Under the pieces are notes generated by a model. That model did no database searches, was not told the DNA's origin, and saw nothing but the letters and a program-made list of their open reading frames with translations. A stretch of 13,897 nt of DNA from Candidatus Woesearchaeota archaeon (GTDB lineage Archaea; Nanobdellota; Nanobdellia; Pacearchaeales; GW2011-AR1), in the NCBI GenBank assembly GCA_964362025.1, contig CAYICW010000004.1:1-13897 (forward strand), given 5' to 3'. Of the stretch, positions 781 through 12,571 are shown in pieces. The position numbers and the translations under genes were made by a program. Numbering within the stretch: position 1 is the stretch's first letter; each line of letters starts with the position of its first letter.

Positions 781-794
781 GAAATCTTTATAAA
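781..794 (+). promoter_or_regulatory. Archaeal BRE/TATA promoter element (gaaatctttataaa) for the 824-4906 operon
   Basis: Matches a motif recurring in this window, GAAA(T/C)CTTTA(T/A)A(T/A)A. There are 29 nt between the motif end and the ATG at 824. Confidence 0.5.
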
Positions 795-823: not shown

Positions 824-2521
824 ATGAGCAGAAAAGGCAGCAAATTAAGGAGCATAGGAACCTATTTCCTTGCGGGATCTTTGGCGGTCGGAAGTGCAGC
901 TTATGCACAGCAAGATGTCTTAAAAAATAATCCTCTTGCACCTAGGCCCGAGTCCTGGGATGGCATTCCCCTTCTATATCAAGATACTAAAGATACTACT
1001 CATAAAAATATTTCTGATGCTACTCCAATCAATCCTGAAAAATCTCAAAATCTCATATACGCTGAAGCGGAATTAACATCTGCAGGAGACGGCGTTCTGG
1101 CAAAATCCTATGTGACTGAAGTGAATGTTTCTCCTGACAATGAATACTCCCTAAAAAGCAAATTTTCCTCAAAAGACAAGATCAAATATTTCTTCACAGA
1201 TGCCAGAAAAGGGCTTGAGAGAATAGTGAAGAAGATGGGGCGTGACAGCAAATTGACCGGAAAAGAAAAAGCCATAAAATATTATTTAAGGGGGCTTGCA
1301 AGAAAGCTAAGATCCAATGATAAAGCCAGCTTAAAGTTGTTAAACACTGCTGTTAAAGATGGAATTATTTCTCCTGAAGAAGACGGGCTTTACAATGAAA
1401 AAGGATGGAAAGTTAAGGATGATGTTTACATGGCTGTTGTCAAGACAAAAAGCCAGGAGACTCCATTATTGTTATATTTCAGACCAAAAACATACGCAGA
1501 AGCAAGAAAAAAAGAAGGCAGGTTGGAACAGGAAATTAAAAAAGAAGCAAAGCCTGAGGAAACTCGTCAGGCGGACGCCAAAATGTCATCCGCAAGCGTG
1601 GCCGAGTTAGAGAAAAAGGACAGTTCAGAGACAATTACAAAATATGAAAAAGAAAAACAGGAAGCAGGAAGGGATAATCTGAGAGTAAAAGAACCAGTTA
1701 TTTCTGATAGTTTAGAAACAAAAGAATCAATTTTTATTGATAGCTCTGCAACAGAAAAACCTTTCATAGAAGTAATCGATGGTATTCTTCAATTGCTAAA
1801 GCCATATGATTCCCTGACAACTGAACAGAAGAAAGAATATCAGATGGAATATGCTAATTTTTGGGGGGCAAAAGATATAGTGGGAGTTAATCCTGAACTT
1901 TATGTTGTCATAGAGGATTCAACAAAAGAAGAGGAAGCAAAGCCCGAGAAAAATGCGGGCGGACCTGGATTTGGATTAGAGGCCGGAGTTGGAAATAACG
2001 GCGAGAAAACAGTCGGAGTTTTTGGAGATGTTCCATTGACATCATGGCTAAAATTAGGAGCATATGCAAATTACTCGGCAGCAAGAGGAAATTCTTATTC
2101 TTACGACGAGAGAACAGAGATTACACAGAGAGAAAGGCAATTGATAGGACCTGCAACTTACAAGCAAAGGACAGACGAAATAACCACAACCCTTGAGGAT
2201 ATGGCAAGAGCAGAAGTAGGAGCTGGAATCACACTAAAGATTTCAGAAAATGTGGAAATTCCATTTAGGGTTGGAGCAAAAATATTGAATGAAAAGGAAA
2301 TCAAAGAGGGAAAGAGCACAATAGTCCATGAAAGAAACGCGCAAATTCTTGGAGAAGCAAAAACAATAACAGGTCAGACAGAAAGCGACAGTCCAGTCAA
2401 CAGATTGTCATTAAGCGCAGGAGCAATATATAATATAAACAAGAACTTGGCTGTTGGCGCTGAATTCAACAGAACAGGAAATTATAATCAAGGACAAGTA
2501 AATTTGAGGGTGGGTTTTTAA
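824..2521 (+). CDS. Secreted protein (565 aa): Sec-type signal peptide, K/E-rich central region, and a C-terminal OMP-like 8-strand beta-barrel domain ending in Phe
   Basis: The N-terminus is MSRKGSKLRSIGTYFLAGSLAVGSAAYA|QQ, a positive n-region, hydrophobic core and AxA cleavage site. The C-terminal ~187 aa (nt 1958-2518) show eight amphipathic alternating-hydrophobic strands (GFGLEAGVG, TVGVFGDVPL, LKLGAYANYS, AEVGAGITLKIS, VEIPFRVGAKIL, LSLSAGAIYNI, LAVGAEFNRT, QVNLRVGF) and a terminal F. Confidence 0.85.
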   Translation: MSRKGSKLRSIGTYFLAGSLAVGSAAYAQQDVLKNNPLAPRPESWDGIPLLYQDTKDTTHKNISDATPINPEKSQNLIYAEAELTSAGDGVLAKSYVTEVNVSPDNEYSLKSKFSSKDKIKYFFTDARKGLERIVKKMGRDSKLTGKEKAIKYYLRGLARKLRSNDKASLKLLNTAVKDGIISPEEDGLYNEKGWKVKDDVYMAVVKTKSQETPLLLYFRPKTYAEARKKEGRLEQEIKKEAKPEETRQADAKMSSASVAELEKKDSSETITKYEKEKQEAGRDNLRVKEPVISDSLETKESIFIDSSATEKPFIEVIDGILQLLKPYDSLTTEQKKEYQMEYANFWGAKDIVGVNPELYVVIEDSTKEEEAKPEKNAGGPGFGLEAGVGNNGEKTVGVFGDVPLTSWLKLGAYANYSAARGNSYSYDERTEITQRERQLIGPATYKQRTDEITTTLEDMARAEVGAGITLKISENVEIPFRVGAKILNEKEIKEGKSTIVHERNAQILGEAKTITGQTESDSPVNRLSLSAGAIYNINKNLAVGAEFNRTGNYNQGQVNLRVGF

Positions 2522-2522
2522 G

Positions 2523-2927
2523 ATGAAAAAAGGAACAATAACACAAGCTTCAGAATACAAATCAGTTGAGGAAAAAGTCTTTACACCCATTGGAAAAAGA
2601 TTACAGGATTTCGGGCAGGCATTTTATGGAGGAGCTGCTATTTATTTCAGAATTCCTACTACTGTTAGAAAAATTATGAATGTCCAAACCATTACAACCA
2701 AGAATGAAGGAGATCTGTCAAATAGTTTTGTATTGGGAGGATTTATTGGATTAATTAGTACGCCAGCTTATATCTTTAAAAATAATTCATTTGAATTAGA
2801 GACTTTACTTTACAGCTTCTTGGCAACAAATGTTATCTCTGGAATTTATGAGTTGGGAAGACTTTCAACAAGCAGGCAAGAACATGTTCGATTAAAAGCT
2901 TCTAAACTGGAGGAAAAAGCAAGATGA
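2523..2927 (+). CDS. Small membrane protein (134 aa, two predicted TM helices)
   Basis: Starts 1 nt after the stop of the upstream gene. SD-like GAGGGTGGG lies at 2506-2514. Hydrophobic segments are FVLGGFIGLISTPAYIF and LLYSFLATNVISGIY. No family recognised. Confidence 0.7.
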   Translation: MKKGTITQASEYKSVEEKVFTPIGKRLQDFGQAFYGGAAIYFRIPTTVRKIMNVQTITTKNEGDLSNSFVLGGFIGLISTPAYIFKNNSFELETLLYSFLATNVISGIYELGRLSTSRQEHVRLKASKLEEKAR

Positions 2928-4669
2928 AAACACAAAAATTAATATTAATTCCAGCAATGCTGATTTTATCAGTCTTCTTACTTTCGGTTATAAGCGCTTC
3001 AAGCGTTACGGTTTCATTATTTTATGACGCTACAACCTCTAACGCGCTTACAATAATGAACGGAGACAGCACAAATATAATAGTAAGCGCTGATTCCATA
3101 TTCGAAAATAGCATGACTGTAAGGATAGATGTGCTGGACAAGGCTGGTGCCTTGGTTTCAAATATATTGGATACATACACTACAAGCGATTCTTATTCAA
3201 AATATTTGGCAATAGGAAAACCCGCATACCTTGGTCCTGGAAATTATACAATAAAAGCAACTGTAACAGGCGCGAGCGGACAAAGCGATACAGACAGTTT
3301 ATATCTTACGGTGTTAACCGTAACTCCAGGAAATACCGCACCTGTAATAACATCTGCTCCTATAATAACAGTAAATGAAACACAAAACTATAATTATCAG
3401 GTTACTGCAACAGATGCCGATGGAGATGCACTCACATATTCATTGACACAAAGCCCACAAAATCCTCCATGGCTCTCAATAAACAGCCTCGGACTTATAA
3501 CCGGAATTGCTCCCAATGTCAGCTCTGATTATTCCTATGCTGTAACAGTGAAGGTTTCAGATGGAAAAGACTTTGACCTTCAGACTTTCCCGATAACTGT
3601 AAAGGATACAAATCAGGCAGGGGACACAACTCCTCCCTTTGTAAATGTGATTTTCCCTGTAAGTGGTGCAACTTATTCAAGCAATTCATTGACATTCATT
3701 ATGAATACAAACGAGCCTACAGCAAGAGCATGGTATGTTTTATTAAGTGACATGATTCCAGTTGACATGACAGAAATAACTTCAACCAGCTTCACAAAAG
3801 ATGTTGTCTTGGGAGATGGCTCTTATGAGGTGGTATTTTATGCGAAGGACCTTGCAGGAAATGTTGGAACAAGCGATATCATAAATTTCTCTGTGAAAAA
3901 AGGCGCAGTTGATACAACTCCCCCTGTCGTAACAGTAATTTCTCCAACAAATAATCTGGTTTATAATTATTCAAACATTAATTTTGAGATAACAGCCAAT
4001 GAAGCATTAAGCAATGCCTGGTTTAGCCTTGACGGTGGAGCAAATGTTTCCCTGAATTCAGTATCCAGCACAGATTTTACAAAGATAGTCGCTGTTGCAA
4101 ACGGAAATCATAATGTTGTTTTCTATGCCCAGGATTTGGCAGGAAATATCGGATCAAGTCAGGTTACTTTCGGTGTGAATGTGATTATTGCGCAGGATAC
4201 AACTCCTCCATACTTAGAAATCTTTTCTCCTGAAGAAGGAATTACATACACTTCTTATATTACTACTTTATCCTTCCTAGCATCTGACCCTAATCTTTAC
4301 ATATGCTGGTACAGTGTGGATGGCGGCGTGACAAGGAATCCCATAACCTGCAATGTTTCGGTAATAGGACTAACTTCTGTTGAAGGAAAAAACAACTGGA
4401 CAGTTTATGCAATAGACCTGGCTGGAAATCAGGCAAGCAAGACAGTTACATTCTATGTAAATATTCCGGGACAGGAAGATAAGAAAAGCTCAAAAAACAA
4501 GGGAGCGAGATATGTTACTGATACCGACGGGACAAAGCAATATCTTAGCCAGTTTGCTCCTCAAACAATTGACGATGATGGAGGAATAAAATTAGCTGGA
4601 GAACAGCCTTCATTCTGGGACAATTTCATAAACTGGCTAAAGAGCATATTCCACTGGATTTTTGGGTAA
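2924..4669 (+). CDS. Surface adhesin-like protein (581 aa): signal/anchor, Ig-like domain, He_PIG/cadherin-like domain, and three tandem DTTPP Ig-like repeats
   Basis: ATGA overlap with the upstream gene, and GGAGG at 2909-2913. The N-terminal hydrophobic segment is LILIPAMLILSVFLLSVISASS. The signature TATDADGDALTYSL...PPWLSIN..GLITG...Y...V.VSDG is typical of putative-Ig (He_PIG) or dystroglycan-type cadherin-like domains. Three ~95-aa repeats each carry DTTPP..V..I.P...Y....W(Y/F)..DG......V.YA.DLAGN, which resembles bacterial Ig-like (Big_5-type) domains. Confidence 0.85.
   Translation: MKTQKLILIPAMLILSVFLLSVISASSVTVSLFYDATTSNALTIMNGDSTNIIVSADSIFENSMTVRIDVLDKAGALVSNILDTYTTSDSYSKYLAIGKPAYLGPGNYTIKATVTGASGQSDTDSLYLTVLTVTPGNTAPVITSAPIITVNETQNYNYQVTATDADGDALTYSLTQSPQNPPWLSINSLGLITGIAPNVSSDYSYAVTVKVSDGKDFDLQTFPITVKDTNQAGDTTPPFVNVIFPVSGATYSSNSLTFIMNTNEPTARAWYVLLSDMIPVDMTEITSTSFTKDVVLGDGSYEVVFYAKDLAGNVGTSDIINFSVKKGAVDTTPPVVTVISPTNNLVYNYSNINFEITANEALSNAWFSLDGGANVSLNSVSSTDFTKIVAVANGNHNVVFYAQDLAGNIGSSQVTFGVNVIIAQDTTPPYLEIFSPEEGITYTSYITTLSFLASDPNLYICWYSVDGGVTRNPITCNVSVIGLTSVEGKNNWTVYAIDLAGNQASKTVTFYVNIPGQEDKKSSKNKGARYVTDTDGTKQYLSQFAPQTIDDDGGIKLAGEQPSFWDNFINWLKSIFHWIFG
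3623..4465 (+). repeat. Three tandem ~95-codon domain repeats inside the adhesin gene (3623-3910, 3911-4195, 4196-~4465)
   Basis: Each unit starts with GA(C/T)ACAACTCC(T/C)CC (DTTPP) and ends after the (V/T)VYA.DLAGN motif. The repeats are diverged at the DNA level and conserved at the motif level. Confidence 0.8.
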
Positions 4670-4962: not shown

Positions 4963-4985
4963 AGTTATACATATAAGTTATACAT
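4963..4985 (+). promoter_or_regulatory. Direct repeat AGTTATACAT x2 (4963-4972, 4976-4985) between the TATA box and the vapB start; candidate VapB/VapBC operator
   Basis: Two exact 10-nt copies with a 13-nt period. The second overlaps the ATG. The operator role is inferred from the known autoregulation of type II TA operons. Confidence 0.35.
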
Positions 4986-5211
4986 GGCAATAGAAGTCAG
5001 GACAAAGAAATGGGGAAATTCAATAGGCATAATCATACCTAGCGAGGCTGTTGAAAGACTAAACATAAAGCCCGAGGAAAAGATAGTAATTGAGATAAAT
5101 AGAAAGGGGAATGTTCTTGAAGAAATGTTTGGAACAATGAAATCCAAAAAGACGGCAAAGATGATGGTTAATGAAGCACGCAAAGAGATGAAAAGCAAAT
5201 GGATGAAATAG
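4984..5211 (+). CDS. vapB: AbrB/SpoVT (MazE-fold) family antitoxin, VapB-like (75 aa)
   Basis: The N-terminal sequence VRTKKWGNSIGIIIPSEAVERLNIKPEEKIVIEI is the swapped-hairpin AbrB/SpoVT signature (KWGNS.G..IP). It overlaps the downstream PIN gene by 13 nt. Confidence 0.85.
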   Translation: MAIEVRTKKWGNSIGIIIPSEAVERLNIKPEEKIVIEINRKGNVLEEMFGTMKSKKTAKMMVNEARKEMKSKWMK

Positions 5212-5573
5212 ACAAATGCCTTGATACTTATGCATTAATTGAGATTAAATTGGGAAATCCAAAATTTAAAGATTATCTAAATCATAATTTTGTCATTGTT
5301 GATTTAATATTGGCAGAATTTTACAGCGTTCTTCTCAGGGAAGAAAATGAAGAAACAGCAAACTTTTGGTTTAAAAAACTTGAAAGTTACTCAATTCCGG
5401 CGAGCAAAGAGATTCTTATTGAAGCGGTAAAATTCAGGCATAAACACAAAAAAGATAATATTTCTTTCTTTGATGCAGTTGGATATATTTTCTCCCTAAA
5501 AAATGGCTATAAATTTGTTACAGGAGACAAGGAATTTCAGGGATTATTAAATGTTGAATTCAAGAAAAAATAA
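5199..5573 (+). CDS. vapC: PIN-domain ribonuclease toxin, VapC-like (124 aa)
   Basis: The conserved acidic residues sit in typical PIN context: LDTYALIE (first Asp), LAEFYSVL (Glu), FFDAVGY (Asp) and VTGDKEF (Asp). The gene is paired with an upstream AbrB-type antitoxin. Confidence 0.85.
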   Translation: MDEIDKCLDTYALIEIKLGNPKFKDYLNHNFVIVDLILAEFYSVLLREENEETANFWFKKLESYSIPASKEILIEAVKFRHKHKKDNISFFDAVGYIFSLKNGYKFVTGDKEFQGLLNVEFKKK

Positions 5574-5606: not shown

Positions 5607-7220
5607 TTAGAAATCCTCATTCATACCGCGCACAGGATTAACGCTCATCATATTTCCCTTTTTGCCTCTGGACGCAATCACATCATCAATTCTAAGGATC
5701 ATTATTGCAACCTCGCTTGCCGAAGAGATTGCCTGTGTTTTGACCTTCAATGGCTCAATAATCTTTGCCTCAAGAACATTTTCAATCTTGTTCGTGAAAA
5801 GATTCAATCCTGCATTTCTTTCTCCTGAATCATGCCTTGATTTAAGCTCTGTAAGAACATCTATGGGGTCCATTCCTGCATTCTCTGCCAATGTAGAGGG
5901 GATGAATTCCATGGCATTTGCAAATTCCTCGACAGCCAGCTGCTCCCTTCCGGAAAGCCCCTGTGAAAACTCTCGGAGCCTCTTTGTCAATTCCATTTCC
6001 ACTGCTCCTCCTCCAGGAACAACAAGCCCTGATCTGAGAGCGCACGCCACATCGCCCAAGCCGTCTTTTATTGCCCTTTCAACCTCGTCGATGACATGCT
6101 CTGTTCCGCCGTGGATAAGTATTGTAAGCGCCTTTGGATTTTGGCATCCCTTCACATACGTGAATGTATCTTCACCGTGCTTTACTTCTTCAACAACCTC
6201 TGCGTTTCCCAATTCAAAAGGAGTCAGTTCGCTAAGGCTTGAAACAATCTTTGCTCCTGTTGCTTTTGCAAGTTTTTCTATGTCGCTTCTCGCAACTCTC
6301 CTGCATGCAAAAATCTCCTCTTTTGATAGAAGATACTGCGCAAAGTCGTCTATTCCCTTCTGGCAGAAAACAACATTTGCGCCTGAAAATTTCACTTTAT
6401 CAACTATCTCTTTTATTGATCTTTCTTCCTGCAATATGAATCCCTGAAGCTGCTCTGGAGTTGAGATTGAAATCCGCGTTTGTATCTCTGGGTTTTTCAG
6501 CTCCAATGGAAAATCCAGAAGGGCTATTCTAGCATTTTTAACCAATGTTGGCATGTCCGGAGAAACTCTTTCCTTGTCAAGAACTATTCCTGAAATAAGC
6601 TCGGTGTCACTTATCCCGTCTCCTTTTGATTTTTCTATTTTTATGTCCTTCAAATCTATTTTTCCGTTATTTTCAATCTGTTTTATGGCCCGCAAGATTA
6701 TGTCTGCAAATAATTCTTTTGAATCCTCTGCCCCTTTTCCAGTCATTGCAGTTATTGCCACCTGCCTAAGCACATCCTCATCATCTTTTGTTATTCTCAG
6801 CGCAATATCATTAAGAATTTCCTTTGACTTTTCAGCTGCAATCCGATATCCTTTTGTTATAACAGTGGGATGTATCTTCATATCCAAAAGTTTTTCTGCA
6901 TTTTCAAGAAGCTTTCCGGCTATCATAACAGCGGTAGTTGTCCCGTCCCCGACTTCTGCTTCCTGTGTCTTTGCAATCTCCACCATCATTTTTGCAGCTG
7001 GATGCTCTATCTGCATCTCCTCAAGTATTGTAACACCGTCATTGGTGATAACTATGTCGTTCGAAGGAGACACTAGCATCTTGTCCATCCCTCTTGGACC
7101 CAAGGTTGTCTTGACTATGTCTGCAACCATTTTTGCGGCGAGTATGTTATTTCTCTGCGCGTCTTTTCCTATTATTCTCTGAATATCCTCAGGCATTAGA
7201 ACCATTGGCTTGTCTGTCAT
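5607..7220 (-). CDS. ths: Thermosome subunit (group II chaperonin, 537 aa)
   Basis: Full-length match to group II chaperonin signatures: [28 protein letters not shown] (ATP binding), [11 protein letters not shown] and IEPLKVK. GGAGAA SD at 7235-7230 on the minus strand. Confidence 0.97.
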
Positions 7221-7543
7221 TCTATGCTATTCTCCATAGGCCCTTCTACTTCCAATATTTTTAATAATTTATTCTTAACTCTGTTATATAGTACTTTTTT
7301 CATCTTTAATTTTTCCAACAGCACTTTTTTAACATCCTTTCTGATGCTTATTACTTCAACTCCTCCCCAGACTTGGTCCAAATTAACTACATATCCCTTA
7401 TCTATAAGACCATTGATAATAGGAACTGCCTCATCCAATTTACTTCTCTCATATCTCTTTAAACTTCCATTACTATCTATCACATCATAACGAATAAATG
7501 GTGTTTCAGAATCATCGCTCCAGATATAAATATTCCCTATCAT
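7217..7543 (-). CDS. Hypothetical protein (108 aa) translationally coupled to the thermosome gene
   Basis: Its TGA stop overlaps the thermosome ATG (ATGA at 7220-7217, minus strand). A TATA-like aatatttataag lies about 28 nt upstream of its ATG. No family recognised. Confidence 0.6.
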   Translation of the reverse strand: MIGNIYIWSDDSETPFIRYDVIDSNGSLKRYERSKLDEAVPIINGLIDKGYVVNLDQVWGGVEVISIRKDVKKVLLEKLKMKKVLYNRVKNKLLKILEVEGPMENSIE

Positions 7544-7651
7544 TTTTTATACAATTCAGAAACAAATAATTCCTCTTATAAATATTATTATGTTGTAGAG
7601 AACATGTCTTGTTTTGGCAAAATTTATTAAGTAAAAGCACCATAAATTGGC

Positions 7652-8215
7652 ATGGAAAGCATCCTGGTTGCAGACATTATGACTAGGGATCCTGTAAGCA
7701 TCGAGCCGGGCGCCACTCTTCTGGATTGCGCAAAGATGATGGTAAAAAAAAGAGTCGGGAGCCTTCTTATTGTTCACAAGAAAAAATTATTGGGATTTAT
7801 TGACGAAAAAGACATATTGTGGGCCATGATAAAGAAATCCAAAGATGATCTTTCAAAAATAATGGCTCTTGACATAGCCCCCAGGAAGATAGCAACAATA
7901 AATCCTTTCATAAGCATAAAGGAAGCTGTAAAAAAAATGAAAAAACTGAAGTTTGAAAGGCTTCCGGTCATACACAACGGCGAATTAGTTGGGATAATCA
8001 CCTCCAAGGACATACTGGAATTCTATCCGGAATTATATTCTGAGCTTGATGAGATGTCTGCAATAAGGGAGGAATACAGAAAGCTTCTAAGAGTCAAAAA
8101 AGCGCAGATAATACCAAGAACCCGTGATGGAATATGCGAAGAATGCGGAAAAAGGGACATCCTGTTCAAGGTGAACGGGATGCTTATGTGCGAAAGCTGC
8201 AGAAGCCGGATATAA
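7652..8215 (+). CDS. CBS-domain pair protein with C-terminal CxxC...CxxC zinc ribbon (187 aa)
   Basis: Two CBS modules are present (VADIMTRDPVSIEP...VGSLLIV.....LLGFIDEKDIL and ...INPFISIKEAVKKM....ERLPVIHNGELVGIITSKDIL). The C-terminus is CEECGKRDILFKVNGMLMCESC. Confidence 0.9.
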   Translation: MESILVADIMTRDPVSIEPGATLLDCAKMMVKKRVGSLLIVHKKKLLGFIDEKDILWAMIKKSKDDLSKIMALDIAPRKIATINPFISIKEAVKKMKKLKFERLPVIHNGELVGIITSKDILEFYPELYSELDEMSAIREEYRKLLRVKKAQIIPRTRDGICEECGKRDILFKVNGMLMCESCRSRI

Positions 8216-8315
8216 TTTAGATGTTAAAGCGCATACTATCCTTGCAGGCAAAATATAATTTTAGTTAAGTATTTAAATAATATCCTTGTCTTATAAGCAA
8301 ATAAGGTAAAAACAA

Positions 8316-8819
8316 ATGTCAGAAAAAGAGACAATATTCTCGAGCAAGATAAAATACAACGGGGTTTTTTCTTTTACGGAATTTTATAAGTTTTGCTATG
8401 AATGGTTAAGTGACGAAACTGGATTAAGCATCCATGAAGATAAGTATGGGGAAAAGCTAATGGGAGATTCAAAAGAGATAGTGGTTGAATGGACTGGCGA
8501 GAAAAAAATGACTGACTACTTCAAATTTGAGGCAAAAATAACAATTAAGGTAAAAGATCTGACAAAAGTTGAGGCTAATCAGGGCGGGGCGAAGGTGCAG
8601 ATGAACAAAGGCAGCGTTGAAGTCGGAATAAAGGGCAATCTTGTAAGGGATTATGAAGGAAAATTTGAGACAACTGCTTTCAAGAAATTTTTAAGAAGCA
8701 TATATGAAAAATGGGTTATTGCATCGAGGATAGAGCATTATGAGGACAAAATAATCGGCAGCTGCGATGAGTTCTTGTCGCAGGCAAAAGCCTATCTTGA
8801 TCTTGAGGGAAAACGGTAA
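8316..8819 (+). CDS. Hypothetical protein (167 aa)
   Basis: Clean ORF with typical codon composition. No family recognised. Its last five codons and stop (GAGGGAAAACGGTAA) form the start of the 51-bp tandem repeat. Confidence 0.7.
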   Translation: MSEKETIFSSKIKYNGVFSFTEFYKFCYEWLSDETGLSIHEDKYGEKLMGDSKEIVVEWTGEKKMTDYFKFEAKITIKVKDLTKVEANQGGAKVQMNKGSVEVGIKGNLVRDYEGKFETTAFKKFLRSIYEKWVIASRIEHYEDKIIGSCDEFLSQAKAYLDLEGKR

Positions 8820-8917
8820 ATTTTTCCGCGTCGTTTTATTTAATGAAAAACGCCGGAGGGAAAACGGTAAATTTTTCCGCGTCGTTTTATTTAATGAAAA
8901 ACGCCGGAGGGAAAACG
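8805..8917. repeat. Perfect 51-bp tandem duplication (8805-8855 and 8856-8906) plus an 11-nt third start (8907-8917); a further degenerate box GAGGAAAACGATGA lies at 8937-8950
   Basis: The unit is GAGGGAAAACGGTAAATTTTTCCGCGTCGTTTTATTTAATGAAAAACGCCG and the two copies are identical by eye. Each unit holds two 6-bp hairpins, GGAAAA-n8-TTTTCC and CGTTTT-n9-AAAACG, plus T-tracts. Confidence 0.9.
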
Positions 8918-8954
8918 ATGAAATTGAAAAAAGACAGAGGAAAACGATGACATA

Positions 8955-8968
8955 GAAATCTTTAAATA
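8955..8968 (+). promoter_or_regulatory. BRE/TATA promoter (gaaatctttaaata) for the 8990 gene
   Basis: Consensus motif with 21 nt between its end and the ATG at 8990. Confidence 0.5.
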
Positions 8969-8989
8969 CAAATTCTTTCTGATTTGAAT

Positions 8990-10375
8990 ATGAAAAGAGT
9001 ATTTATTTTAATGATTCTGCTTGTATTGGCTCTTCCATTTGTGCTTTCTTTGAATTTAAATGTCGAGAAAACAAGCTCTGGAGAGGTTATGATTGCTGAC
9101 TTGAAAAAACCGGCTGATTTTAACCTTAAAATAGCAAATCTGGGCGCGGCAGACTATATAGAATTTTATAATTTGCTTGGATTTCAGATGTTTCCCATCG
9201 GAACAACCTATATCGGCGCTGGAGAAACAAAAGAGATAGTTTTGAGGGTTTCCCCCCTAGGAGACCTAAAAACAAGGGGGCATTACACCTTTGATTATTT
9301 CATAAGGGGAGGAGACAAGTCAGAGACAAAACAAACATTGACTTTCCAGATAATAGATTTGAAGGATGCTTTTGAGGTTGGCTCTGGAAATATAGAAACA
9401 CAATCAATGTCCCTTCAGATATATATTCATAATAAAAATAACTTCAACTTTGGAAATATAACCGCCAAATTCAATTCAGCCTTCTTTGATTTTGAAAAGC
9501 AATTCAGCCTTGGACCATATGAAAGAAAAAATTTTGACATTCAATTAAACAAAGAGGACTTCAATAGCCTGATGGCAGGATTCTATACCTTGAATGTTGA
9601 GGCAGAGGTTGGGGGAAAGACCGCTGAGATTGAGGGTGTCATAAAATATGCTGAAAAAGATGTGCTGGCAACAAGCTCAACAAATTACGGATTTGTAATA
9701 AACACAGAAGTTATCAAAAAAATAAATGAGGGGAATGTTGTTGCGCAAACAGAAACAGTAGTCAAAAAAAACATTATTTCGAGGCTATTTACAACCCTTA
9801 CTCCTGAACCAGACAGTGTTGACAGGCAGGGCTTGACTGTTTATTATGTATGGAACAGGGAATTAAATCCAGGGGAAACGCTGGAGATAACAGCAAGAAC
9901 CAACTGGCTGTTCCCTCTTGTTGTTATATTATTGATTGTGGCAATAGTTTTGCTTGTGAAACAATATTCAAGGACCAACATTGTGCTGAAGAAAAGAGTT
10001 AATTTTGTAAGGGCCAAGGGAGGCGAATTTGCGCTAAAGGTTTCCATATTTGTGAATGCAAAAAAATATGTGGAAAGAGTAAACATAATAGACAGGCTTC
10101 CTCCTCTTGTGAAGCTGTATGAAAGATACGGCGGGGAAAAGCCAACAAGAATCGACGAGAAGAACAGGAAACTGGAATGGAATTTCGAGAAGCTTGAAGC
10201 AGGGGAAACAAGAGCATTGTCCTACATAATATTCTCAAAGGTTGGAATATTGGGAAAATTCGCGCTTCCATCTGCAAGCGCAATATATGAAAAAGACGGG
10301 GAAATAAACGAGACAGAATCCAATAAGGCTTTCTTTATAACAGAGCCAAGAGTCAAGGGTCCTGAAGAGAGATAA
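8990..10375 (+). CDS. Bitopic membrane protein (~461 aa): signal peptide, large beta-sandwich-like ectodomain, one TM helix, and a further CARDB/DUF11-like beta domain after the TM
   Basis: The track starts at a TTG (8984), but the ATG at 8990 fits the promoter spacing better. The signal-like N-terminus is MKRVFILMILLVLALPFVLS. The TM helix is WLFPLVVILLIVAIVLLV. Recurrent motifs of the type ...GET.E(I/L)....(V/Y).. occur (GAGETKEIVLRV, NPGETLEITART, EAGETRALSYIIF), as in CARDB/DUF11-type archaeal surface domains. Confidence 0.8.
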   Translation: MKRVFILMILLVLALPFVLSLNLNVEKTSSGEVMIADLKKPADFNLKIANLGAADYIEFYNLLGFQMFPIGTTYIGAGETKEIVLRVSPLGDLKTRGHYTFDYFIRGGDKSETKQTLTFQIIDLKDAFEVGSGNIETQSMSLQIYIHNKNNFNFGNITAKFNSAFFDFEKQFSLGPYERKNFDIQLNKEDFNSLMAGFYTLNVEAEVGGKTAEIEGVIKYAEKDVLATSSTNYGFVINTEVIKKINEGNVVAQTETVVKKNIISRLFTTLTPEPDSVDRQGLTVYYVWNRELNPGETLEITARTNWLFPLVVILLIVAIVLLVKQYSRTNIVLKKRVNFVRAKGGEFALKVSIFVNAKKYVERVNIIDRLPPLVKLYERYGGEKPTRIDEKNRKLEWNFEKLEAGETRALSYIIFSKVGILGKFALPSASAIYEKDGEINETESNKAFFITEPRVKGPEER

Positions 10376-10380
10376 GAAGG

Positions 10381-11126
10381 TTAATTATCTTTTTTAATAA
10401 CAAGGACAAAATCACCCATTTTAGGGTCGTTAAATAAATCTTCCTTTGGCCAAAGTTTAATCTCCTCAATAACCTTAAACCCTGTGGATTTTAAATCCTC
10501 CAAGAGATATTTCATAACTTACTTTATATTCGCCTTTCCTTATAGCCGAGAGGTATAATTCATTAAACAGTGCGAATAATTGTTTTTCTGTCGGTTTTTC
10601 TGTCTTTAAGAGATATTTAATTCTCTCGGCATATAATTTAGAAGCACTATCTGCAGCGCCAATTGGCTCTTTGAACTTTGAAACTAATTTCTCATAAATT
10701 ACCAAAATGCCTTTGTTAGATAAGCGATTGGAAATATTTTCAAGGTATGCTCTTTTTTCTGTATCTTTAATATGATGATAAGAAGAAGTGGCTACAATAA
10801 CATCAAATTTTTCAGGAATTCTTACTTTAACAGCATCTTCCTGAATAAATTTATAATTTGGATATTTTATTAACTGACTTTTTGCAAAGTCCAAAAACGA
10901 TTTGTTTATATCTACTCCCACATAAGAAACATTCTTTAATTTAGTCAGCCATTTTTCTAGGAAAAATACCTGTGCCACAGCATAAATCCAAAATATTTAT
11001 TTTTGAGAAGCCCTTCGTGAATTCCTGAATATTTTTGAAAACCTCATCAAAGTTTTTTCTTTCTAAATTAGTATCTATATATTCATCATATATTCTTGGG
11101 TCTAATTCACATAGGCTGTCTGACAT
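10381..11126 (-). pseudogene. Class I SAM-dependent methyltransferase interrupted by two +1 frameshifts (three ORF fragments)
   Basis: Fragment 1 (11126/11192-10941) ends in motif I, ILDLCCGTGIF. Fragment 2 (10978-10475, one base offset) continues EKWLTKLKNVSYVGVDINKSFLDFAK...FDVIVATSSYHHI...GILVIYE. Fragment 3 (10518-10381, one more base offset, not in the ORF track) reads (K)YLLEDLKSTGFKVIEEIKLWPKEDLFNDPKMGDFVLVIKKDN*, a typical methyltransferase C-terminus. The first break lies at the T5/A5 runs in GGTATTTTTCCTAGAAAAATGG (about 10950-10970). Confidence 0.7.
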
Positions 11127-11244
11127 TATTATAATAGTCTTGGAGGGGTATTTATTATTTTCTATATTGCTAATTATCCTGATATTAATCAAATTTCTTT
11201 CAATAACAAACCTTAAAAATCAATATCCTCTTTTATTTTCATAT

Positions 11245-11388
11245 CCCTCCATAGCTCAGTGGCAGAGCGTTCGGCTGTAGATTATTTAAGCGAATCTAAG
11301 GCGGATATTCCCTACGACGGAAATTAAATGAAACCCCAAAAGCCGAGCAGTACCCGAGAGATCCCCGGTTCGAGTCCGGGTGGAGGGA
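11245..11388 (+). tRNA. tRNA-Tyr (anticodon GTA at 11277-11279) with a ~72-nt intron at the canonical 37/38 position; CCA not encoded
   Basis: Manual fold. Acceptor CCCTCCA/TGGAGGG with C1-G72 (the archaeal/eukaryal Tyr identity pair). D arm GCTC-AGTGGCA-GAGC. Anticodon stem TTCGG (11270-74)/CCGAG (11354-58). Variable loop AGATC. T arm CCCGG-TTCGAGT-CCGGG. Discriminator A at 11388. Confidence 0.85.
11281..11352 (+). other. tRNA-Tyr intron (~72 nt) with a bulge-helix-bulge-like splice motif
   Basis: C75-T76-G77-T78 pair with G47-C48-A49-G50 (coordinates 113xx/112xx) to form a 4-bp central helix. It is flanked by a 3-nt bulge AGA (11279-81) on the 5' strand and TAC (11351-53) on the 3' strand. 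The outer helix is weak (T-A, T.G). An internal ATTTAA(11284-89)/TTAAAT(11324-29) stem is present. Exact splice sites may be off by 1 nt. Confidence 0.6.
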
Positions 11389-11393
11389 TTTTT
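11389..11393 (+). terminator. Oligo-T tract (T5) immediately after the tRNA discriminator base
   Basis: TTTTT follows A11388. Oligo-T tracts are the usual archaeal termination signal. Confidence 0.4.
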
Positions 11394-11427
11394 ATAATCT
11401 ATGTTAGATGCTATATATAACAACAGA

Positions 11428-11441
11428 GAAATCTTTATATA
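11428..11441 (+). promoter_or_regulatory. BRE/TATA promoter (gaaatctttatata), the best consensus copy in the window, upstream of two micro-ORFs
   Basis: There are 22 nt between the motif end and the ATG at 11464, the same spacing as the vapB and 8990 promoters. Confidence 0.5.
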
Positions 11442-11463
11442 GCGAGGGAAGGCATCCTCAAAA

Positions 11464-11559
11464 ATGCAAGACGAGGAAATCAACGCATTTCCGAGAAATA
11501 AAGATTGTATAGAAATATTTAAAAATCAGGCATATTTATTAAAAAATAATAAAAAATGA
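11464..11559 (+). CDS. Candidate micro-protein (31 aa, MQDEEINAFPRNKDCIEIFKNQAYLLKNNKK)
   Basis: Not in the ORF track because it is too short. The ATG is at leaderless distance from a consensus promoter. Its stop overlaps the next ATG (ATGA at 11556-11559). Confidence 0.3.
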   Translation: MQDEEINAFPRNKDCIEIFKNQAYLLKNNKK

Positions 11560-11660
11560 GGTCAAAAGGGGATAAAACTATTGAGTTAGTTCCGGAAGAG
11601 GAAGAAGATCAGGAAGAGTTATTTGAAGAGGAGATTGATTCTTTGGATCTTGACGGTTAA
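11556..11660 (+). CDS. Candidate acidic micro-protein (34 aa, MRSKGDKTIELVPEEEEDQEELFEEEIDSLDLDG)
   Basis: ATGA-coupled to the preceding micro-ORF. It is followed by T-tracts (taatttttatttttt). Its stop overlaps the stop of the convergent metzincin gene within TTAA (11657-11660). Confidence 0.35.
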   Translation: MRSKGDKTIELVPEEEEDQEELFEEEIDSLDLDG

Positions 11661-12571
11661 TTTTTATTTTTTATATTTAAATTTATTCCATTATTCTCCT
11701 TGCTTAACTCGGCTTCGTCGGAAGATACAATGAATTTCAGTTCACTGGTTTTTATCTGTAGCACCAGAATATTTTTAAGAGTTATTTTTGTGCCATAACC
11801 TATTTTCAATTCCTCTATATCCAGTTCTTTTATCAGTTTTCCATCGGCATATATTTCCATTGTTGAATTCTTAGAGTCCGCAAGGCCCTCGTTCATAACC
11901 GTGATATTTGCATCCAAATATTTTCCATGCATGACTGCGGACGCATTTTCTATGGACAAATCAATATAACTTGGAGTGGAATATAAATTGTTTATTGTGT
12001 CTATCATGTCCTGACTTATTTCCTGATTGCAGCTGCTAAAATTATACATTATATTATTTGGATTTGGAGAATGGTCAAATCCAAGAACATGAAACAGCTC
12101 ATGTATTCCCACATTTGGACTAGCGCATTGTGATTCTCTTATTAGAAGAATTTGCCCTCCTTTTATAACATTAAAATTGGAAGTCATTGTTACGTTTGTC
12201 GGGCCTCCTTCTCCAGCGATAAACAATTCCCCCTCTCTTTTATTTTTTGAATCGCATGTCACACTTATTTCCTCGTTGCTTACAACCTGATAAAAATTCA
12301 ACGAGGTTTTATTGGCGATTATTCCAAAAGCCCTTTCCATATCTTCCTGCTTGCCAAGCGGGCAATTATCTACACGGTAGGAAATGTTCAAGGTTGGAAA
12401 TCTCATATTAGGATGAAACTGCATTCCCTTGTCTGATGCATTCAGGCTAAAATTATAATTTCGCTCTTTAAATCCAAAGTTAATATCATTAAATGGAACT
12501 ATCCAATAAAGACCTAAAAGGATAATTACCACAAGGAAAAAGACAAAACTTAAAAAAATCCTTAGGTTCAT
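11657..12571 (-). CDS. Membrane-anchored zinc metalloprotease of the metzincin clan (matrixin-like HExxHxxGxxHS) with a C-terminal CARDB-like beta-sandwich (304 aa)
   Basis: The N-terminal TM is IFLSFVFFLVVIILLGLYWIV. The zinc site HELFHVLGFDHS lies at nt 12103-12068 and is followed by the Met-turn NNIMY. The C-terminal ~100 aa (LSIENASAVMHGKYLDANITVMNEGLADSKNSTMEIYADGKLI...) resemble CARDB. A TATA box, ttttatataa (minus strand, 12601-12592), lies 20 nt upstream of the ATG. Confidence 0.85.
   Translation of the reverse strand: MNLRIFLSFVFFLVVIILLGLYWIVPFNDINFGFKERNYNFSLNASDKGMQFHPNMRFPTLNISYRVDNCPLGKQEDMERAFGIIANKTSLNFYQVVSNEEISVTCDSKNKREGELFIAGEGGPTNVTMTSNFNVIKGGQILLIRESQCASPNVGIHELFHVLGFDHSPNPNNIMYNFSSCNQEISQDMIDTINNLYSTPSYIDLSIENASAVMHGKYLDANITVMNEGLADSKNSTMEIYADGKLIKELDIEELKIGYGTKITLKNILVLQIKTSELKFIVSSDEAELSKENNGINLNIKNKN

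What the first reader, a model, noticed from the sequence alone, without database searches (positions are those of the whole stretch)
1958..2521. Bacterial-OMP-like 8-strand beta-barrel domain with a C-terminal Phe beta-signal in an archaeal gene
The last ~187 aa of the 565-aa secreted protein form eight amphipathic strands with alternating hydrophobic residues, separated by alternating short turns and long polar loops. The protein ends ...QVNLRVGF, with hydrophobic residues at -1/-3/-5/-7 and a terminal Phe. That is the signature of BamA-dependent outer-membrane proteins of the OmpA/OmpX/OMP_b-brl type. The N-terminus is a classical Sec signal peptide with an AYA|QQ cleavage site. The genomic context is unambiguously archaeal: a thermosome, a BHB tRNA intron, and TATA/BRE promoters, one of which drives this gene. 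Archaea generally lack an outer membrane and Bam machinery. The domain is therefore either a bacterial acquisition put to a new use (a pore inserted into a host membrane, or a soluble barrel), evidence of an outer envelope layer in this lineage, or a convergent beta-rich fold.
Basis: partly seen in the sequence, partly recalled or inferred. Interest (0 to 1): 0.75.

Follow-up and report, generated by a model that had tools for sequence, protein, structure and literature searches.

The report
Bacterial-type membrane barrel in tiny archaea
A family of ultra-small (DPANN/Nanoarchaeota) archaea carries a secreted protein ending in an eight-stranded beta-barrel of the type otherwise known only from bacterial, mitochondrial and chloroplast outer membranes, always encoded next to an Ig-like surface protein, which raises the question of which membrane it sits in.

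Summary
Window 824-2521 (+) encodes a 565-aa protein with a Sec-type signal peptide, an N-domain with no known fold, a K/E-rich spacer and a C-terminal 187-aa domain (nt 1958-2518). That domain matches Pfam OMP_b-brl (30.7 bits, cut-off 28.7). AlphaFold2 models it as all-beta (pLDDT 75-91), and its top 50 PDB fold matches are all outer-membrane barrels (OmpA, Ail, OmpX).

The domain has eight amphipathic strands; strands 3-6 extend as a long polar sheet. The terminal Phe occurs in 58 of 68 family members, with hydrophobic residues at -3/-5/-7.

The contig is not chimeric. The gene lies in conserved synteny with thermosome, PCNA and primase on independent contigs from Nanoarchaeota, Woesearchaeota and Pacearchaeota MAGs.

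New here: the gene is always followed directly by an Ig-like (He_PIG/Big_13) type-I membrane protein. The "extracellular" extension is the best-conserved part of the barrel.

I read it as a lipid-embedded OmpX/Ail-like anchor forming a two-gene envelope or attachment module. Whether the lipid layer is the archaeon's own outer layer or a host membrane is unresolved. No BamA-like gene was seen, but whole genomes could not be searched. No paper describing this was found.

The parts
787..794 (+). TATA-like box TTTATAAA, about 30 nt upstream of the start codon
   Evidence: Read directly from the sequence. It is consistent with an archaeal promoter giving a near-leaderless mRNA. Not tested.
824..2521 (+). 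Gene for the 565-aa OMP-like protein (signal peptide, N-domain, spacer, beta-barrel)
   Evidence: ORF call. 14 homologs by word search and 69 representatives in 1.84 billion proteins. Annotated publicly only as a hypothetical protein of a Nanoarchaeota archaeon.
824..907 (+). Sec-type signal peptide, residues 1-28, with predicted cleavage AYA|QQ
   Evidence: Sequence reading. An AxA-like motif after a hydrophobic core is present in 64 of 68 family members by a crude pattern. No predictor was run.
1046..1519 (+). Conserved N-terminal alpha/beta domain (residues ~75-232), fold not matched to anything known
   Evidence: AF2 on a 13-sequence alignment gives pLDDT 81 and pTM 0.76. There is no significant match in PDB (best E 0.025, TM ~0.3) or BFVD, and no Pfam or NCBIfam hit. 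Invariant positions are G88, G90 and Y122. The domain is absent from short family members.
1520..1957 (+). Variable K/E-rich spacer (residues ~233-378), partly helical, with a small LLKPYDSLTTEQK element
   Evidence: pLDDT is below 50 except for residues 311-350. Length varies from about 20 to about 170 aa among homologs.
1958..2518 (+). C-terminal eight-stranded OMP-type beta-barrel domain (residues 379-565)
   Evidence: Pfam OMP_b-brl at 30.7 bits. AF2 pLDDT 75-91. Foldseek top hits are OmpA, Ail and OmpX; TM-scores normalised to the target are 0.46-0.63 for eight-stranded barrels. Dyad amphipathicity is shown.
2099..2197 (+). Polar beta-hairpin extension 1 (residues 426-458) carrying the family hallmark RERQLIGPxTYKQRTDEITT
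   Evidence: Strand map. Residues R436, G442, Y446, R449 and D451 are 83-95% conserved over 42 sequences. A loose form of the YKxRTDE motif is present in 68 of the 80 proteins gathered.
2294..2392 (+). Polar beta-hairpin extension 2 (residues 491-523) with the conserved GKSTI..ERN motif
   Evidence: G496, S498, I500, R504, N505 and I515 are 81-86% conserved.
2483..2518 (+). Last strand with a beta-signal-like C-terminus (YNQGQVNLRVGF)
   Evidence: Terminal Phe in 58 of 68 members. Among those 58, hydrophobic residues occur at -3/-5/-7 in 86-90% and at even positions in only 7-10%. This strand aligns to the C-terminal strand of Ail and OmpX.
2523..2927 (+). Small 134-aa protein with hydrophobic segments between the two conserved genes; variable filler
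   Evidence: It is homologous only to the ORF in L004. The ORFs at the same position in other loci are unrelated, and L001 and L026 have none.
2924..4669 (+). Partner gene: 581-aa Ig-like surface protein (signal peptide, PKD-like, He_PIG, Big_13 and Glucodextran_B-like domains, C-terminal hydrophobic tail)
   Evidence: Pfam hits. A homolog starts 3-440 nt downstream of the barrel gene in every locus that has at least 500 nt of downstream sequence. Its N-terminal 240 aa are 40-85% identical, usually more conserved than the barrel. Most homologs end in a TM helix plus a basic tail.

Best explanation
**What the protein is.** The gene encodes a Sec-exported envelope protein. Its C-terminal 187 residues fold into an OmpX/Ail-like eight-stranded transmembrane beta-barrel. 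This is shown at the level of sequence profile and predicted fold.

**How it probably works (inferred).**
- The barrel is a lipid anchor. One face of every strand is hydrophobic, and by alignment to Ail and OmpX that face points to the lipid.
- Strands 3-6 continue as a polar four-stranded sheet. This sheet carries the family's most conserved residues and is therefore a binding surface for a conserved ligand.
- The N-terminal domain and the charged spacer hang from the same side of the membrane as the two chain ends.
- The protein works as a pair with the Ig-like type-I membrane protein encoded immediately downstream. That partner is anchored by a C-terminal helix in the archaeal cytoplasmic membrane and projects a stalk of Ig domains.
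- Together they link the cytoplasmic membrane to a second lipid layer that holds the barrel.

**Which layer is not resolved.** I lean towards an outer-membrane-like layer of these Nanoarchaeota themselves, because every feature of the protein is that of a resident outer-membrane protein (about 0.35). Insertion into a host cell's membrane is the alternative (about 0.2). Without a known Bam machine, insertion would have to be spontaneous, as small eight-stranded barrels can do in vitro (established knowledge, not tested here), or rely on an unidentified factor.
For: **Barrel identity.** Pfam OMP_b-brl at 30.7 bits against a 28.7 cut-off. 23 of 42 members hit it independently, and apart from NtrZ the other families matched are outer-membrane barrel or porin families. 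The profile search of PDB puts Ail and OmpX on top, aligned to the terminal Phe. AF2 pLDDT is 75-91, and the top 50 Foldseek PDB hits are all outer-membrane-type barrels, with no lipocalin, avidin or sandwich among them.

**Membrane-type pattern.** Dyad hydropathy difference is 2.1-4.1 in the eight strands and 0.2-1.4 in the extensions. The other face is rich in Gly, Ser and charged residues, as in small OMP lumens (sequence).

**Selection on the C-terminal signal.** 58 of 68 members end in Phe, with alternating hydrophobic residues before it.

**Export.** A signal peptide is present in almost all members.

**Module.** The Ig-like gene follows within 3-440 nt in about 20 distinct loci. These include a short form that lacks the N-domain and the most divergent member, at 26% identity. 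The partner has a signal peptide and a C-terminal TM helix with a basic tail.

**Conserved extension.** Conservation is highest in the extension tips and lowest in the turns on the chain-end side.

**Vertical inheritance in archaea.** Conserved synteny with PriS, PCNA and thermosome, hits only in Nanoarchaeota, Woesearchaeota and Pacearchaeota MAGs, and no compositional anomaly.

**Precedent.** Double membranes have been reported in some archaea, including the DPANN ARMAN cells (PMC4243693).
Against: - No Omp85/BamA, POTRA, Skp, SurA or Lpt family, and no second OMP-like gene, appears in about 250 kb of flanking DNA. Whole genomes could not be searched.
- Nothing is known about the envelope of these lineages.
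- The partner and the other secreted proteins of the window have the signal-peptide plus C-terminal-helix layout typical of single-membrane archaea. This argues against an outer membrane of the archaeon's own.
- The conserved extension lies on the far side of the barrel from the chain ends. A partner anchored in the cytoplasmic membrane could therefore not reach it in a simple own-outer-membrane geometry.
- That the hydrophobic face points outward was inferred from alignment and fold matches, not measured on coordinates.
- The full-length protein scores 1 bit below the Pfam cut-off.
Confidence: 0.5

Rival explanations
1. Host-directed anchor. The archaeon is an ectosymbiont with a single membrane. 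It exports the protein, the barrel ends up in the membrane of the host cell, and the archaeon's own Ig-like adhesin holds on to it. This would be a self-provided receptor, analogous in logic to the Tir-intimin pair.
For: - DPANN archaea are predominantly obligate ectosymbionts (PMC11329633).
- The partner looks like a surface adhesin: variable numbers of He_PIG, cadherin-like and Big domains on a cytoplasmic-membrane anchor.
- The conserved barrel extension and the conserved N-terminal tip of the partner could dock if they face each other across an intercellular gap.
- No Bam-like or other OMP genes are nearby.
Against: - Insertion from outside would put the chain ends on the archaeal side. 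Two ~33-residue, highly charged hairpins would then have to cross the host bilayer without a machine.
- The opposite orientation requires delivery into the host periplasm and use of the host Bam complex. No route for that is known.
- Hosts of these lineages are unknown.
- The gene is a single-copy, syntenic, core-like gene rather than a variable accessory gene.
Confidence: 0.2
2. Not a lipid-embedded barrel. The domain is an OMP-derived fold that now works outside any bilayer. For example, its hydrophobic belt could be buried in an oligomer, in the S-layer, or against the hydrophobic or amphipathic C-terminal tail of the Ig-like partner, so that it serves as a protein-protein connector.
For: - Archaea of this group are not known to have an outer membrane or Bam.
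- Lipid-facing residues are mostly small (Ala, Val, Leu), with only a partial aromatic girdle.
- The window's partner ends in a Trp/Phe-rich amphipathic tail instead of a TM helix.
- The extension is conserved like an interface, not like an exposed loop.
Against: - The alternating pattern, the Gly-rich lumen face, the strand lengths and the terminal Phe are all conserved over members that share only 25-30% identity.
- All structural neighbours are integral membrane barrels.
- No example of an OMP_b-brl domain working outside a membrane is known to me.
Confidence: 0.15
3. Diffusion pore. The barrel is a porin-like channel that exchanges metabolites across an outer layer or across a host membrane.
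For:
- Symbionts with reduced genomes need to take up metabolites.
- Fold matches include OmpG, OmpF and KdgM.
Against: - There are eight strands, with Gly, Ser and charged residues pointing inward. Barrels of the OmpX/OmpA/Ail size class have no open channel (established knowledge).
- The porin matches have TM-scores of 0.1-0.3 normalised to the target, against 0.46-0.63 for eight-stranded barrels.
Confidence: 0.05
4. Artefact. The gene is bacterial DNA mis-assembled or mis-binned into an archaeal contig.
For: The domain type is otherwise bacterial, and the window is a short metagenomic contig.
Against: - The same gene order recurs on independent contigs from different samples and assemblers: PriS, PCNA, then the OMP-like gene, the Ig-like gene, thermosome, CBS, a 167-aa protein, a 463-aa protein and M10 peptidase.
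- Archaeal marker genes lie on both sides.
- All five genome hits are DPANN MAGs.
- GC content is uniform.
Confidence: 0.02

Closest known systems
OmpX / Ail / Lom-type small outer-membrane proteins of Gram-negative bacteria (within the Pfam OMP_b-brl group)
   Same: Both have a signal peptide, eight antiparallel amphipathic strands and short turns on the chain-end side. In both, strands protrude beyond the membrane as a beta-sheet used for binding, and the C-terminus ends in Phe with alternating hydrophobic residues. These proteins are the best sequence-profile and fold matches.
   Different: - Encoded by archaea.
- Preceded by a ~350-residue N-terminal domain plus spacer in most members.
- The protruding sheet is much longer (two hairpins of ~33 residues). 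It is the most conserved region rather than the most variable one.
- Always paired with an Ig-like membrane protein.
- Sequence similarity to the bacterial families is only at threshold level.
OmpA (barrel plus periplasmic domain that ties the outer membrane to the cell wall)
   Same: Both have an eight-stranded barrel joined by a flexible linker to a globular domain on the chain-end side. A role as a tether between envelope layers is plausible. OmpA is the top Foldseek hit (9fzd, E 2e-6).
   Different: - Domain order is reversed: the soluble domain comes first.
- The soluble domain is not an OmpA_C peptidoglycan-binding domain. It has no Pfam hit and no fold match.
- These archaea have no peptidoglycan (general knowledge).
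Classical autotransporters (type Va secretion)
   Same: Both have an N-terminal passenger-like region followed by a C-terminal beta-barrel with a terminal Phe. Four family members give weak hits to the Autotransporter beta-domain model.
   Different: The barrel has 8 strands, not 12, and no helix is predicted to plug it. The lumen is too narrow to pass a chain. The autotransporter fold matches are poor (TM 0.13-0.20).
Ihomp1 (Imp1227), the dominant protein of the Ignicoccus outer membrane, and archaeal double-membrane envelopes in general
   Same: An archaeal protein proposed to reside in a membrane outside the cytoplasmic membrane. Archaea with two membranes interact closely with other organisms (PMC4243693).
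   Different: From my own knowledge, Ihomp1 is a small alpha-helical pore-forming protein, not a beta-barrel. I found no published description of an OMP-type beta-barrel in a characterised archaeal outer membrane.
Intimin-Tir (a pathogen supplies its own receptor to the partner cell's membrane)
   Same: This is only an analogy for the host-directed rival. An Ig-domain adhesin on one cell would bind a co-encoded protein placed in the other cell's membrane.
   Different: There is no homology. Tir is helical and is delivered by type III secretion. In that system the barrel belongs to the adhesin (intimin), not to the receptor. No delivery route is known here.

Membership tests
Pfam OMP_b-brl (PF13505), membrane beta-barrel clan | Score at or above the family's gathering threshold | tested here: met
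   The domain alone scores 30.7 bits against 28.7 (E 4e-7). The full-length protein scores 27.7, just below the cut-off. 23 of 42 family members hit at E<0.01, best 9e-9. The database's precomputed annotation also lists PF13505 for several members. This is a borderline but reproducible match.
Pfam OMP_b-brl (PF13505), membrane beta-barrel clan | Closed antiparallel barrel of eight amphipathic strands with all-next-neighbour topology | tested here: met
   The AF2 model has pLDDT 75-91. Foldseek gives probability 1.0 to OmpA, Ail and OmpX, with TM-scores of 0.46-0.63 normalised to eight-stranded targets.
Pfam OMP_b-brl (PF13505), membrane beta-barrel clan | N-terminal cleavable signal peptide | tested here: met
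   Sequence reading of the n-region, h-region and AYA|QQ. An AxA-like motif occurs in 64 of 68 members. No dedicated predictor was available.
Bam-dependent outer-membrane proteins | C-terminal beta-signal: terminal aromatic residue with hydrophobic residues at -3, -5 and -7 | tested here: met
   F565, V563, L561 and V559 in the window. 58 of 68 members end in Phe. Among those 58, 86-90% are hydrophobic at odd positions and 7-10% at even positions. The Gly at -6 of the refined consensus (recalled from memory) is usually Asn here.
Bam-dependent outer-membrane proteins | The organism has an outer membrane and an Omp85/BamA insertase | not testable with these tools
   No Bac_surface_Ag, POTRA, Skp, SurA or Lpt family occurs among the genes of six flanking contigs. 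No other ORF with a beta-signal was found in about 250 kb. Whole genomes of these MAGs could not be searched, and the ultrastructure is unknown.
Ail/OmpX/Lom family | Significant sequence similarity over the whole barrel | tested here: inconclusive
   The profile search of PDB puts Ail and OmpX on top, but only at E 0.008-0.09 and mainly over the last two strands. The single sequence finds nothing.
OmpA family | OmpA_C-like peptidoglycan-binding domain attached to the barrel | tested here: not met
   No Pfam or NCBIfam hit outside the barrel. The N-domain has no fold match.
Classical autotransporter | 12-stranded C-terminal barrel traversed by a linker helix | tested here: not met
   Eight strands. 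Autotransporter structures match poorly, with TM 0.13-0.20.

The most novel reading that the evidence does not exclude
A clade of Nanoarchaeota (Woesearchaeales/Pacearchaeales) makes genuine OMP-type transmembrane beta-barrels with a conserved beta-signal. Two readings follow.
- These archaea have an outer membrane of their own that takes up beta-barrels without any known Bam machine. That would be the first beta-barrel outer-membrane protein in Archaea.
- They plant the barrel in a host cell's membrane and grip it with the co-encoded Ig-like adhesin. That would be a self-supplied receptor for symbiont attachment.
Probability: 0.4. Interest if true: 0.9.

Novelty: new variant of a known kind. 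Interest (0 to 1): 0.74.

Why it matters
Transmembrane beta-barrels with a C-terminal Phe signal are treated as a hallmark of the outer membranes of diderm bacteria and their organelle descendants, where Omp85-family machines insert them. A conserved, vertically inherited family of this kind in DPANN archaea would mean one of two things.
- Some of these uncultured archaea have a second lipid layer that accepts beta-barrels. This bears on how outer membranes and barrel insertion evolved, and on whether Bam is needed at all for small barrels.
- The barrel is used across cells. This would give a first molecular handle on how Woesearchaeota-type symbionts attach to hosts.

The strict pairing with an Ig-like membrane protein gives a defined two-protein system. 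It can be tested directly by expression, liposome insertion, co-folding, tomography and metaproteomics.

Tried and rejected
**Searches that gave nothing useful**
- Exact look-up of the window protein's contig: not on record.
- Profile search of the 5.8-billion protein set with the 42-sequence barrel alignment: one hit only, so no use for finding bacterial relatives.
- Search with the short family member P0054: found only itself, though its contig could then be read.
It was repeated with A1.
- Single-sequence search of PDB: nothing relevant.
- NCBIfam: nothing for the protein.
- N-domain fold searches against PDB and BFVD: no significant match, only weak Ig-like noise.
- Viral contigs: no relatives, so a viral or mobile origin is not supported.
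- Literature: six searches combining DPANN, Woesearchaeota, Nanoarchaeota, beta-barrel, OMP_b-brl, PF13505, BamA, double membrane and cell envelope found no paper describing this family. One paper mentions a possible distant PopA relative in Altiarchaeales, which is a different family (PMC12228718).

**Ideas considered and rejected**
- Chimeric contig: rejected on synteny.
- Porin function: rejected on eight strands and a filled lumen.
- Autotransporter: rejected on strand number.
- A barrel in the archaeon's own cytoplasmic membrane with the extension outside: topologically impossible for a Sec-exported chain, because both chain ends lie on the far side of the barrel.
- The small gene between the two conserved genes as a third module component: rejected because it is not homologous between loci.

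**Not relied on**
- A length correlation between the barrel protein and its partner (rho 0.66, n=11) is weak, is not corrected for phylogeny and loses significance without one point.
Full report
**1. What is in the window**

The finding covers nt 1958-2521, the last 187 codons and the stop of the ORF at 824..2521 (+), which encodes 565 aa. The window has a fairly even base composition, 33-42% G+C. It also carries:
- a group II chaperonin (thermosome) at 5607-7220 (-): Pfam Cpn60_TCP1 at 605 bits and NCBIfam thermosome_alpha at 762 bits against a cut-off of 450;
- a tRNA gene at 11245-11388 (+) with an insertion of about 75 nt after the start of the anticodon loop. Rfam finds it and ARAGORN misses it;
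- several secreted proteins with Ig-like, CARDB or metallopeptidase domains.

A TATA-like TTTATAAA lies at 787-794, about 30 nt upstream of the start codon.

**2.

The protein starts with a Sec-type signal peptide, MSRKGSKLRSIGTYFLAGSLAVGSAAYA|QQ. It ends with ...YNQGQVNLRVGF, which places F, V, L and V at -1/-3/-5/-7.

- *Sequence profile.* Pfam's OMP_b-brl model matches residues 387-562. The full protein scores 27.7 bits and the isolated domain 30.7 bits, against a cut-off of 28.7 (E 4e-7).
- *Structure prediction.* AlphaFold2 on a 14-sequence alignment gives an all-beta C-terminal domain with pLDDT 75-91.
- *Fold search.* A Foldseek search of the PDB returns only outer-membrane-type barrels among the 50 best matches. 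These include OmpA (9fzd, E 2e-6, probability 1.0), Ail, OmpX, the OmpA transmembrane domain 1qjp (TM 0.58 normalised to the target) and a designed eight-stranded transmembrane barrel (TM 0.63). Larger porins and autotransporters match much less well.
- *Family profile.* A profile of 42 family domains searched against PDB sequences puts Ail and OmpX on top (E 0.008). The alignment runs through the last two strands to the shared terminal Phe.

**3. Anatomy of the domain**

From the DSSP string and the sequence, the eight membrane-type strands are 382-390, 395-404, 409-420, 459-472, 477-490, 524-537, 542-551 and 554-565. Turns on the side of the chain ends are 2-4 residues long.

Strands 3-4 and 5-6 do not stop at the membrane edge. 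They continue as two polar hairpins (426-458 and 491-523), each about 33 residues long. This is a longer version of the protruding sheet of OmpX and Ail.

Over the 42-sequence alignment, the mean hydropathy of alternate positions differs by 2.1-4.1 units in the eight strands and by only 0.2-1.4 in the extensions. The non-hydrophobic face is rich in Gly, Ser, Thr and charged residues, as in the lumen of small outer-membrane proteins. By the alignment to Ail and OmpX, the hydrophobic face is the lipid-facing one. This is an inference, because I could not inspect the coordinates.

**4. The family**

- *Size and layout.* A word-based search found 14 homologs. An exhaustive phmmer search of 1.84 billion cluster representatives with the barrel domain found 69 proteins, 52 of them below 1e-10. 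Nearly all have the same layout: signal peptide, N-domain, variable K/E-rich spacer and C-terminal barrel.
- *Variants.* A few members are short forms of 230-270 aa with only a signal peptide and the barrel. One has a different 580-aa N-terminal region.
- *Hallmark motif.* 68 of the 80 proteins gathered carry a loose form of the hallmark ...LIGPxTYKxRTDE..., which lies in the first extension, including all the weaker hits I read in full. Phmmer therefore reached no ordinary bacterial protein.
- *Link to bacterial families.* The link is visible only at profile level. 23 of 42 members hit OMP_b-brl on their own (best E 9e-9). Apart from NtrZ, a short match of unclear meaning, the remaining hits are all to other outer-membrane barrel families such as Autotransporter, OMP_b-brl_3, Toluene_X and BBP2.
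- *C-terminal signal.* 58 of 68 complete domains end in Phe. Among those 58, positions -3, -5 and -7 are hydrophobic in 86-90% and the even positions in 7-10%. Most exceptions have the same motif followed by a short tail.
- *Public annotation.* The protein is annotated only as "hypothetical protein [Nanoarchaeota archaeon]".

**5. The organism and the question of chimerism**

A scan of one genome per species (185,579 species) found five loci. All are in MAGs labelled Nanoarchaeota, Woesearchaeota or Pacearchaeota.

Independent contigs from other samples and assemblers carry the gene in the same neighbourhood as in the window (other members lie next to arginyl-tRNA synthetase and TrmB):
- upstream: DNA primase small subunit, PCNA and a pyridine-nucleotide oxidoreductase;
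- downstream: the Ig-like gene, the thermosome (78-96% identical), the CBS protein, the 167-aa and 463-aa proteins and the M10/CARDB peptidase.

Archaeal markers lie on both sides, so the gene is a resident, vertically inherited gene of these DPANN archaea. No relatives were found on viral contigs.

**6. New: a strictly conserved gene pair**

In every locus that has at least 500 nt of sequence downstream, a homolog of the window's 581-aa Ig-like protein (2924-4669) starts 3-440 nt after the barrel gene. That is 25 loci, about 20 of them distinct. The set includes the short form that lacks the N-domain (L028) and the most divergent member at 26% identity (L029). The six loci without a hit all end within 470 nt of the gene.

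The partner has a signal peptide, a PKD-like domain and a He_PIG domain in a conserved N-terminal 240 residues. These are 40-85% identical, usually more conserved than the barrel. A variable number of Big_13, cadherin-like or Glucodextran_B-like domains follows. Most homologs end in a C-terminal transmembrane helix with a basic tail. The window's copy ends instead in a Trp/Phe-rich amphipathic tail.

The small ORF that sometimes lies between the two genes (2523-2927 in the window) is not homologous between loci and is absent from some.

**7. New: the extension is the conserved part**

In bacterial outer-membrane proteins the surface loops are normally the most variable part. Here the extension tips are the best conserved: R436, G442, Y446, R449, D451, G496, S498, I500, N505 and I515 are 81-95% conserved. 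The turns on the chain-end side are the least conserved. The extension therefore looks like an interface with a conserved ligand rather than a surface under diversifying selection.

**8. The N-domain**

Residues ~75-232 fold with confidence (pLDDT 81, pTM 0.76). They match nothing significantly in the PDB or BFVD or in Pfam or NCBIfam. Short family members lack this domain yet still pair with the Ig-like gene, so the coupling is between the barrel and the partner.

**9. Mechanism**

*Shown:* an exported protein with an OMP-type barrel, a conserved beta-signal-like end and a conserved polar extension, in an obligatory gene pair with an Ig-like type-I membrane protein, in DPANN archaea.

*Inferred:* the barrel is embedded in lipid. 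It cannot sit in the archaeon's own cytoplasmic membrane with the extension outside, because both chain ends are on the opposite side of the barrel from the extension and the whole chain is exported. It therefore needs a second lipid layer. I considered two versions.
- *(a) An outer-membrane-like layer of the archaeon itself.* The N-domain and spacer would lie in the intermembrane space and the Ig-like partner would span that space from the cytoplasmic membrane, forming a tether in the manner of OmpA or Lpp. Every feature of the protein itself fits this. Double membranes have been reported in some archaea, including the DPANN ARMAN cells, all of which interact closely with other organisms (PMC4243693).
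- *(b) The membrane of a host cell.* The archaeon's Ig-like adhesin would hold the barrel. This fits the ectosymbiotic lifestyle and the monoderm-style anchoring of the partner and of the other secreted proteins. It has no known delivery route, and it requires long charged hairpins to cross a bilayer.

I put (a) at about 0.35, (b) at about 0.2, a non-membrane role at about 0.15 and a pore at about 0.05.

No Omp85/BamA, POTRA, Skp, SurA or Lpt family and no second barrel gene was seen in about 250 kb of flanking DNA. That is a small part of the genomes and does not settle the matter.

**10. Comparison with what is known, and novelty**

By fold and profile the domain belongs with the small eight-stranded outer-membrane proteins (OMP_b-brl; OmpX/Ail-like). 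It differs from them in several ways:
- the host domain of life;
- an added N-terminal domain of unknown fold;
- a much longer and conserved extension;
- an obligatory Ig-like partner;
- no evidence for an insertion machine.

It is not an OmpA-family protein, because it has no OmpA_C domain. It is not an autotransporter, because it has eight strands.

Six full-text searches found no description of such proteins in archaea. The only near mention is a possible distant PopA relative in Altiarchaeales, which is a different family (PMC12228718).

I rate it a new variant of a known kind. The finding is solid and surprising to a specialist, and it turns the question [quoted passage not shown] into a testable one.

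Noticed in passing
window 11245-11388 (+): A tRNA gene with an insertion of about 75 nt after the start of the anticodon loop, presumably an archaeal intron. Rfam finds it at 52 bits; ARAGORN reports no tRNA in the window.
   Followed up: partly
window 8805-8925: A 51-bp tandem repeat, 2.4 copies at 97% identity, in the spacer between the 167-aa gene and the 463-aa secreted-protein gene. A second array with a 29-bp period overlaps it at 8895-8958. It creates a spurious 62-aa ORF with a repeated peptide.
   Followed up: no
window 10475-11192 (-): A class I SAM-methyltransferase appears split into two overlapping ORFs. The 83-aa ORF ends ...LDLCCGTGIFPRKMAD* and the 167-aa ORF carries the Methyltransf_11/12/25 hits. 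This suggests a frameshift or a sequencing error near 10941-10978.
   Followed up: partly
window 4984-5573 (+): An AbrB/MazE-like antitoxin (75 aa) and a 124-aa ORF lie between the Ig-like gene and the thermosome. I took the second ORF to be a PIN-like toxin from its position only; it gave no NCBIfam hit and was not scanned against Pfam. Syntenic contigs L001 and L025 have MazE-PIN pairs at other positions, so the pair looks mobile.
   Followed up: no
window 2924-4669 (+), last ~20 codons: The window's Ig-like partner ends in a Trp/Phe-rich amphipathic tail (FWDNFINWLKSIFHWIFG), as do L012 and L028. Most homologs end in a transmembrane helix plus a basic tail. There are thus two kinds of C-terminal anchor in one family.
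   Followed up: partly
window 5607-12571 and loci L025, L026: A long conserved synteny block: thermosome, CBS-domain protein, a 167-aa protein, a 463-aa signal-peptide/TM protein and an M10 metallopeptidase with a CARDB domain. It is shared by contigs whose barrel proteins are only 36-42% identical to the window's overall (barrel domain 44-57%).
   Followed up: partly
L025 11553-13089 (-): In this contig the thermosome gene is broken into five short ORFs (65, 86, 172, 37 and 144 aa). This is probably due to assembly or sequencing frameshifts rather than a pseudogene.
   Followed up: no
window 1754-1873 (residues ~311-350 of the barrel protein): A small confidently folded element lies inside the otherwise disordered spacer (LLKPYDSLTTEQKKEYQ...ANFW). 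It is duplicated in the closest homolog P0002 and recognisable in P0006. Its role is unknown.
   Followed up: no
proteins P0054, P0071, P0072, P0064 (family members from other metagenomes): The barrel occurs with different N-terminal parts: none (230-260 aa short forms) or a 580-aa acidic, Cys-containing region (P0064). The barrel therefore behaves as a modular anchor.
   Followed up: partly
L027 8524-10362: Two transposase genes (rve and DDE_Tnp_1) lie just downstream of the barrel / Ig-like / SNase gene cluster in this contig.
   Followed up: no
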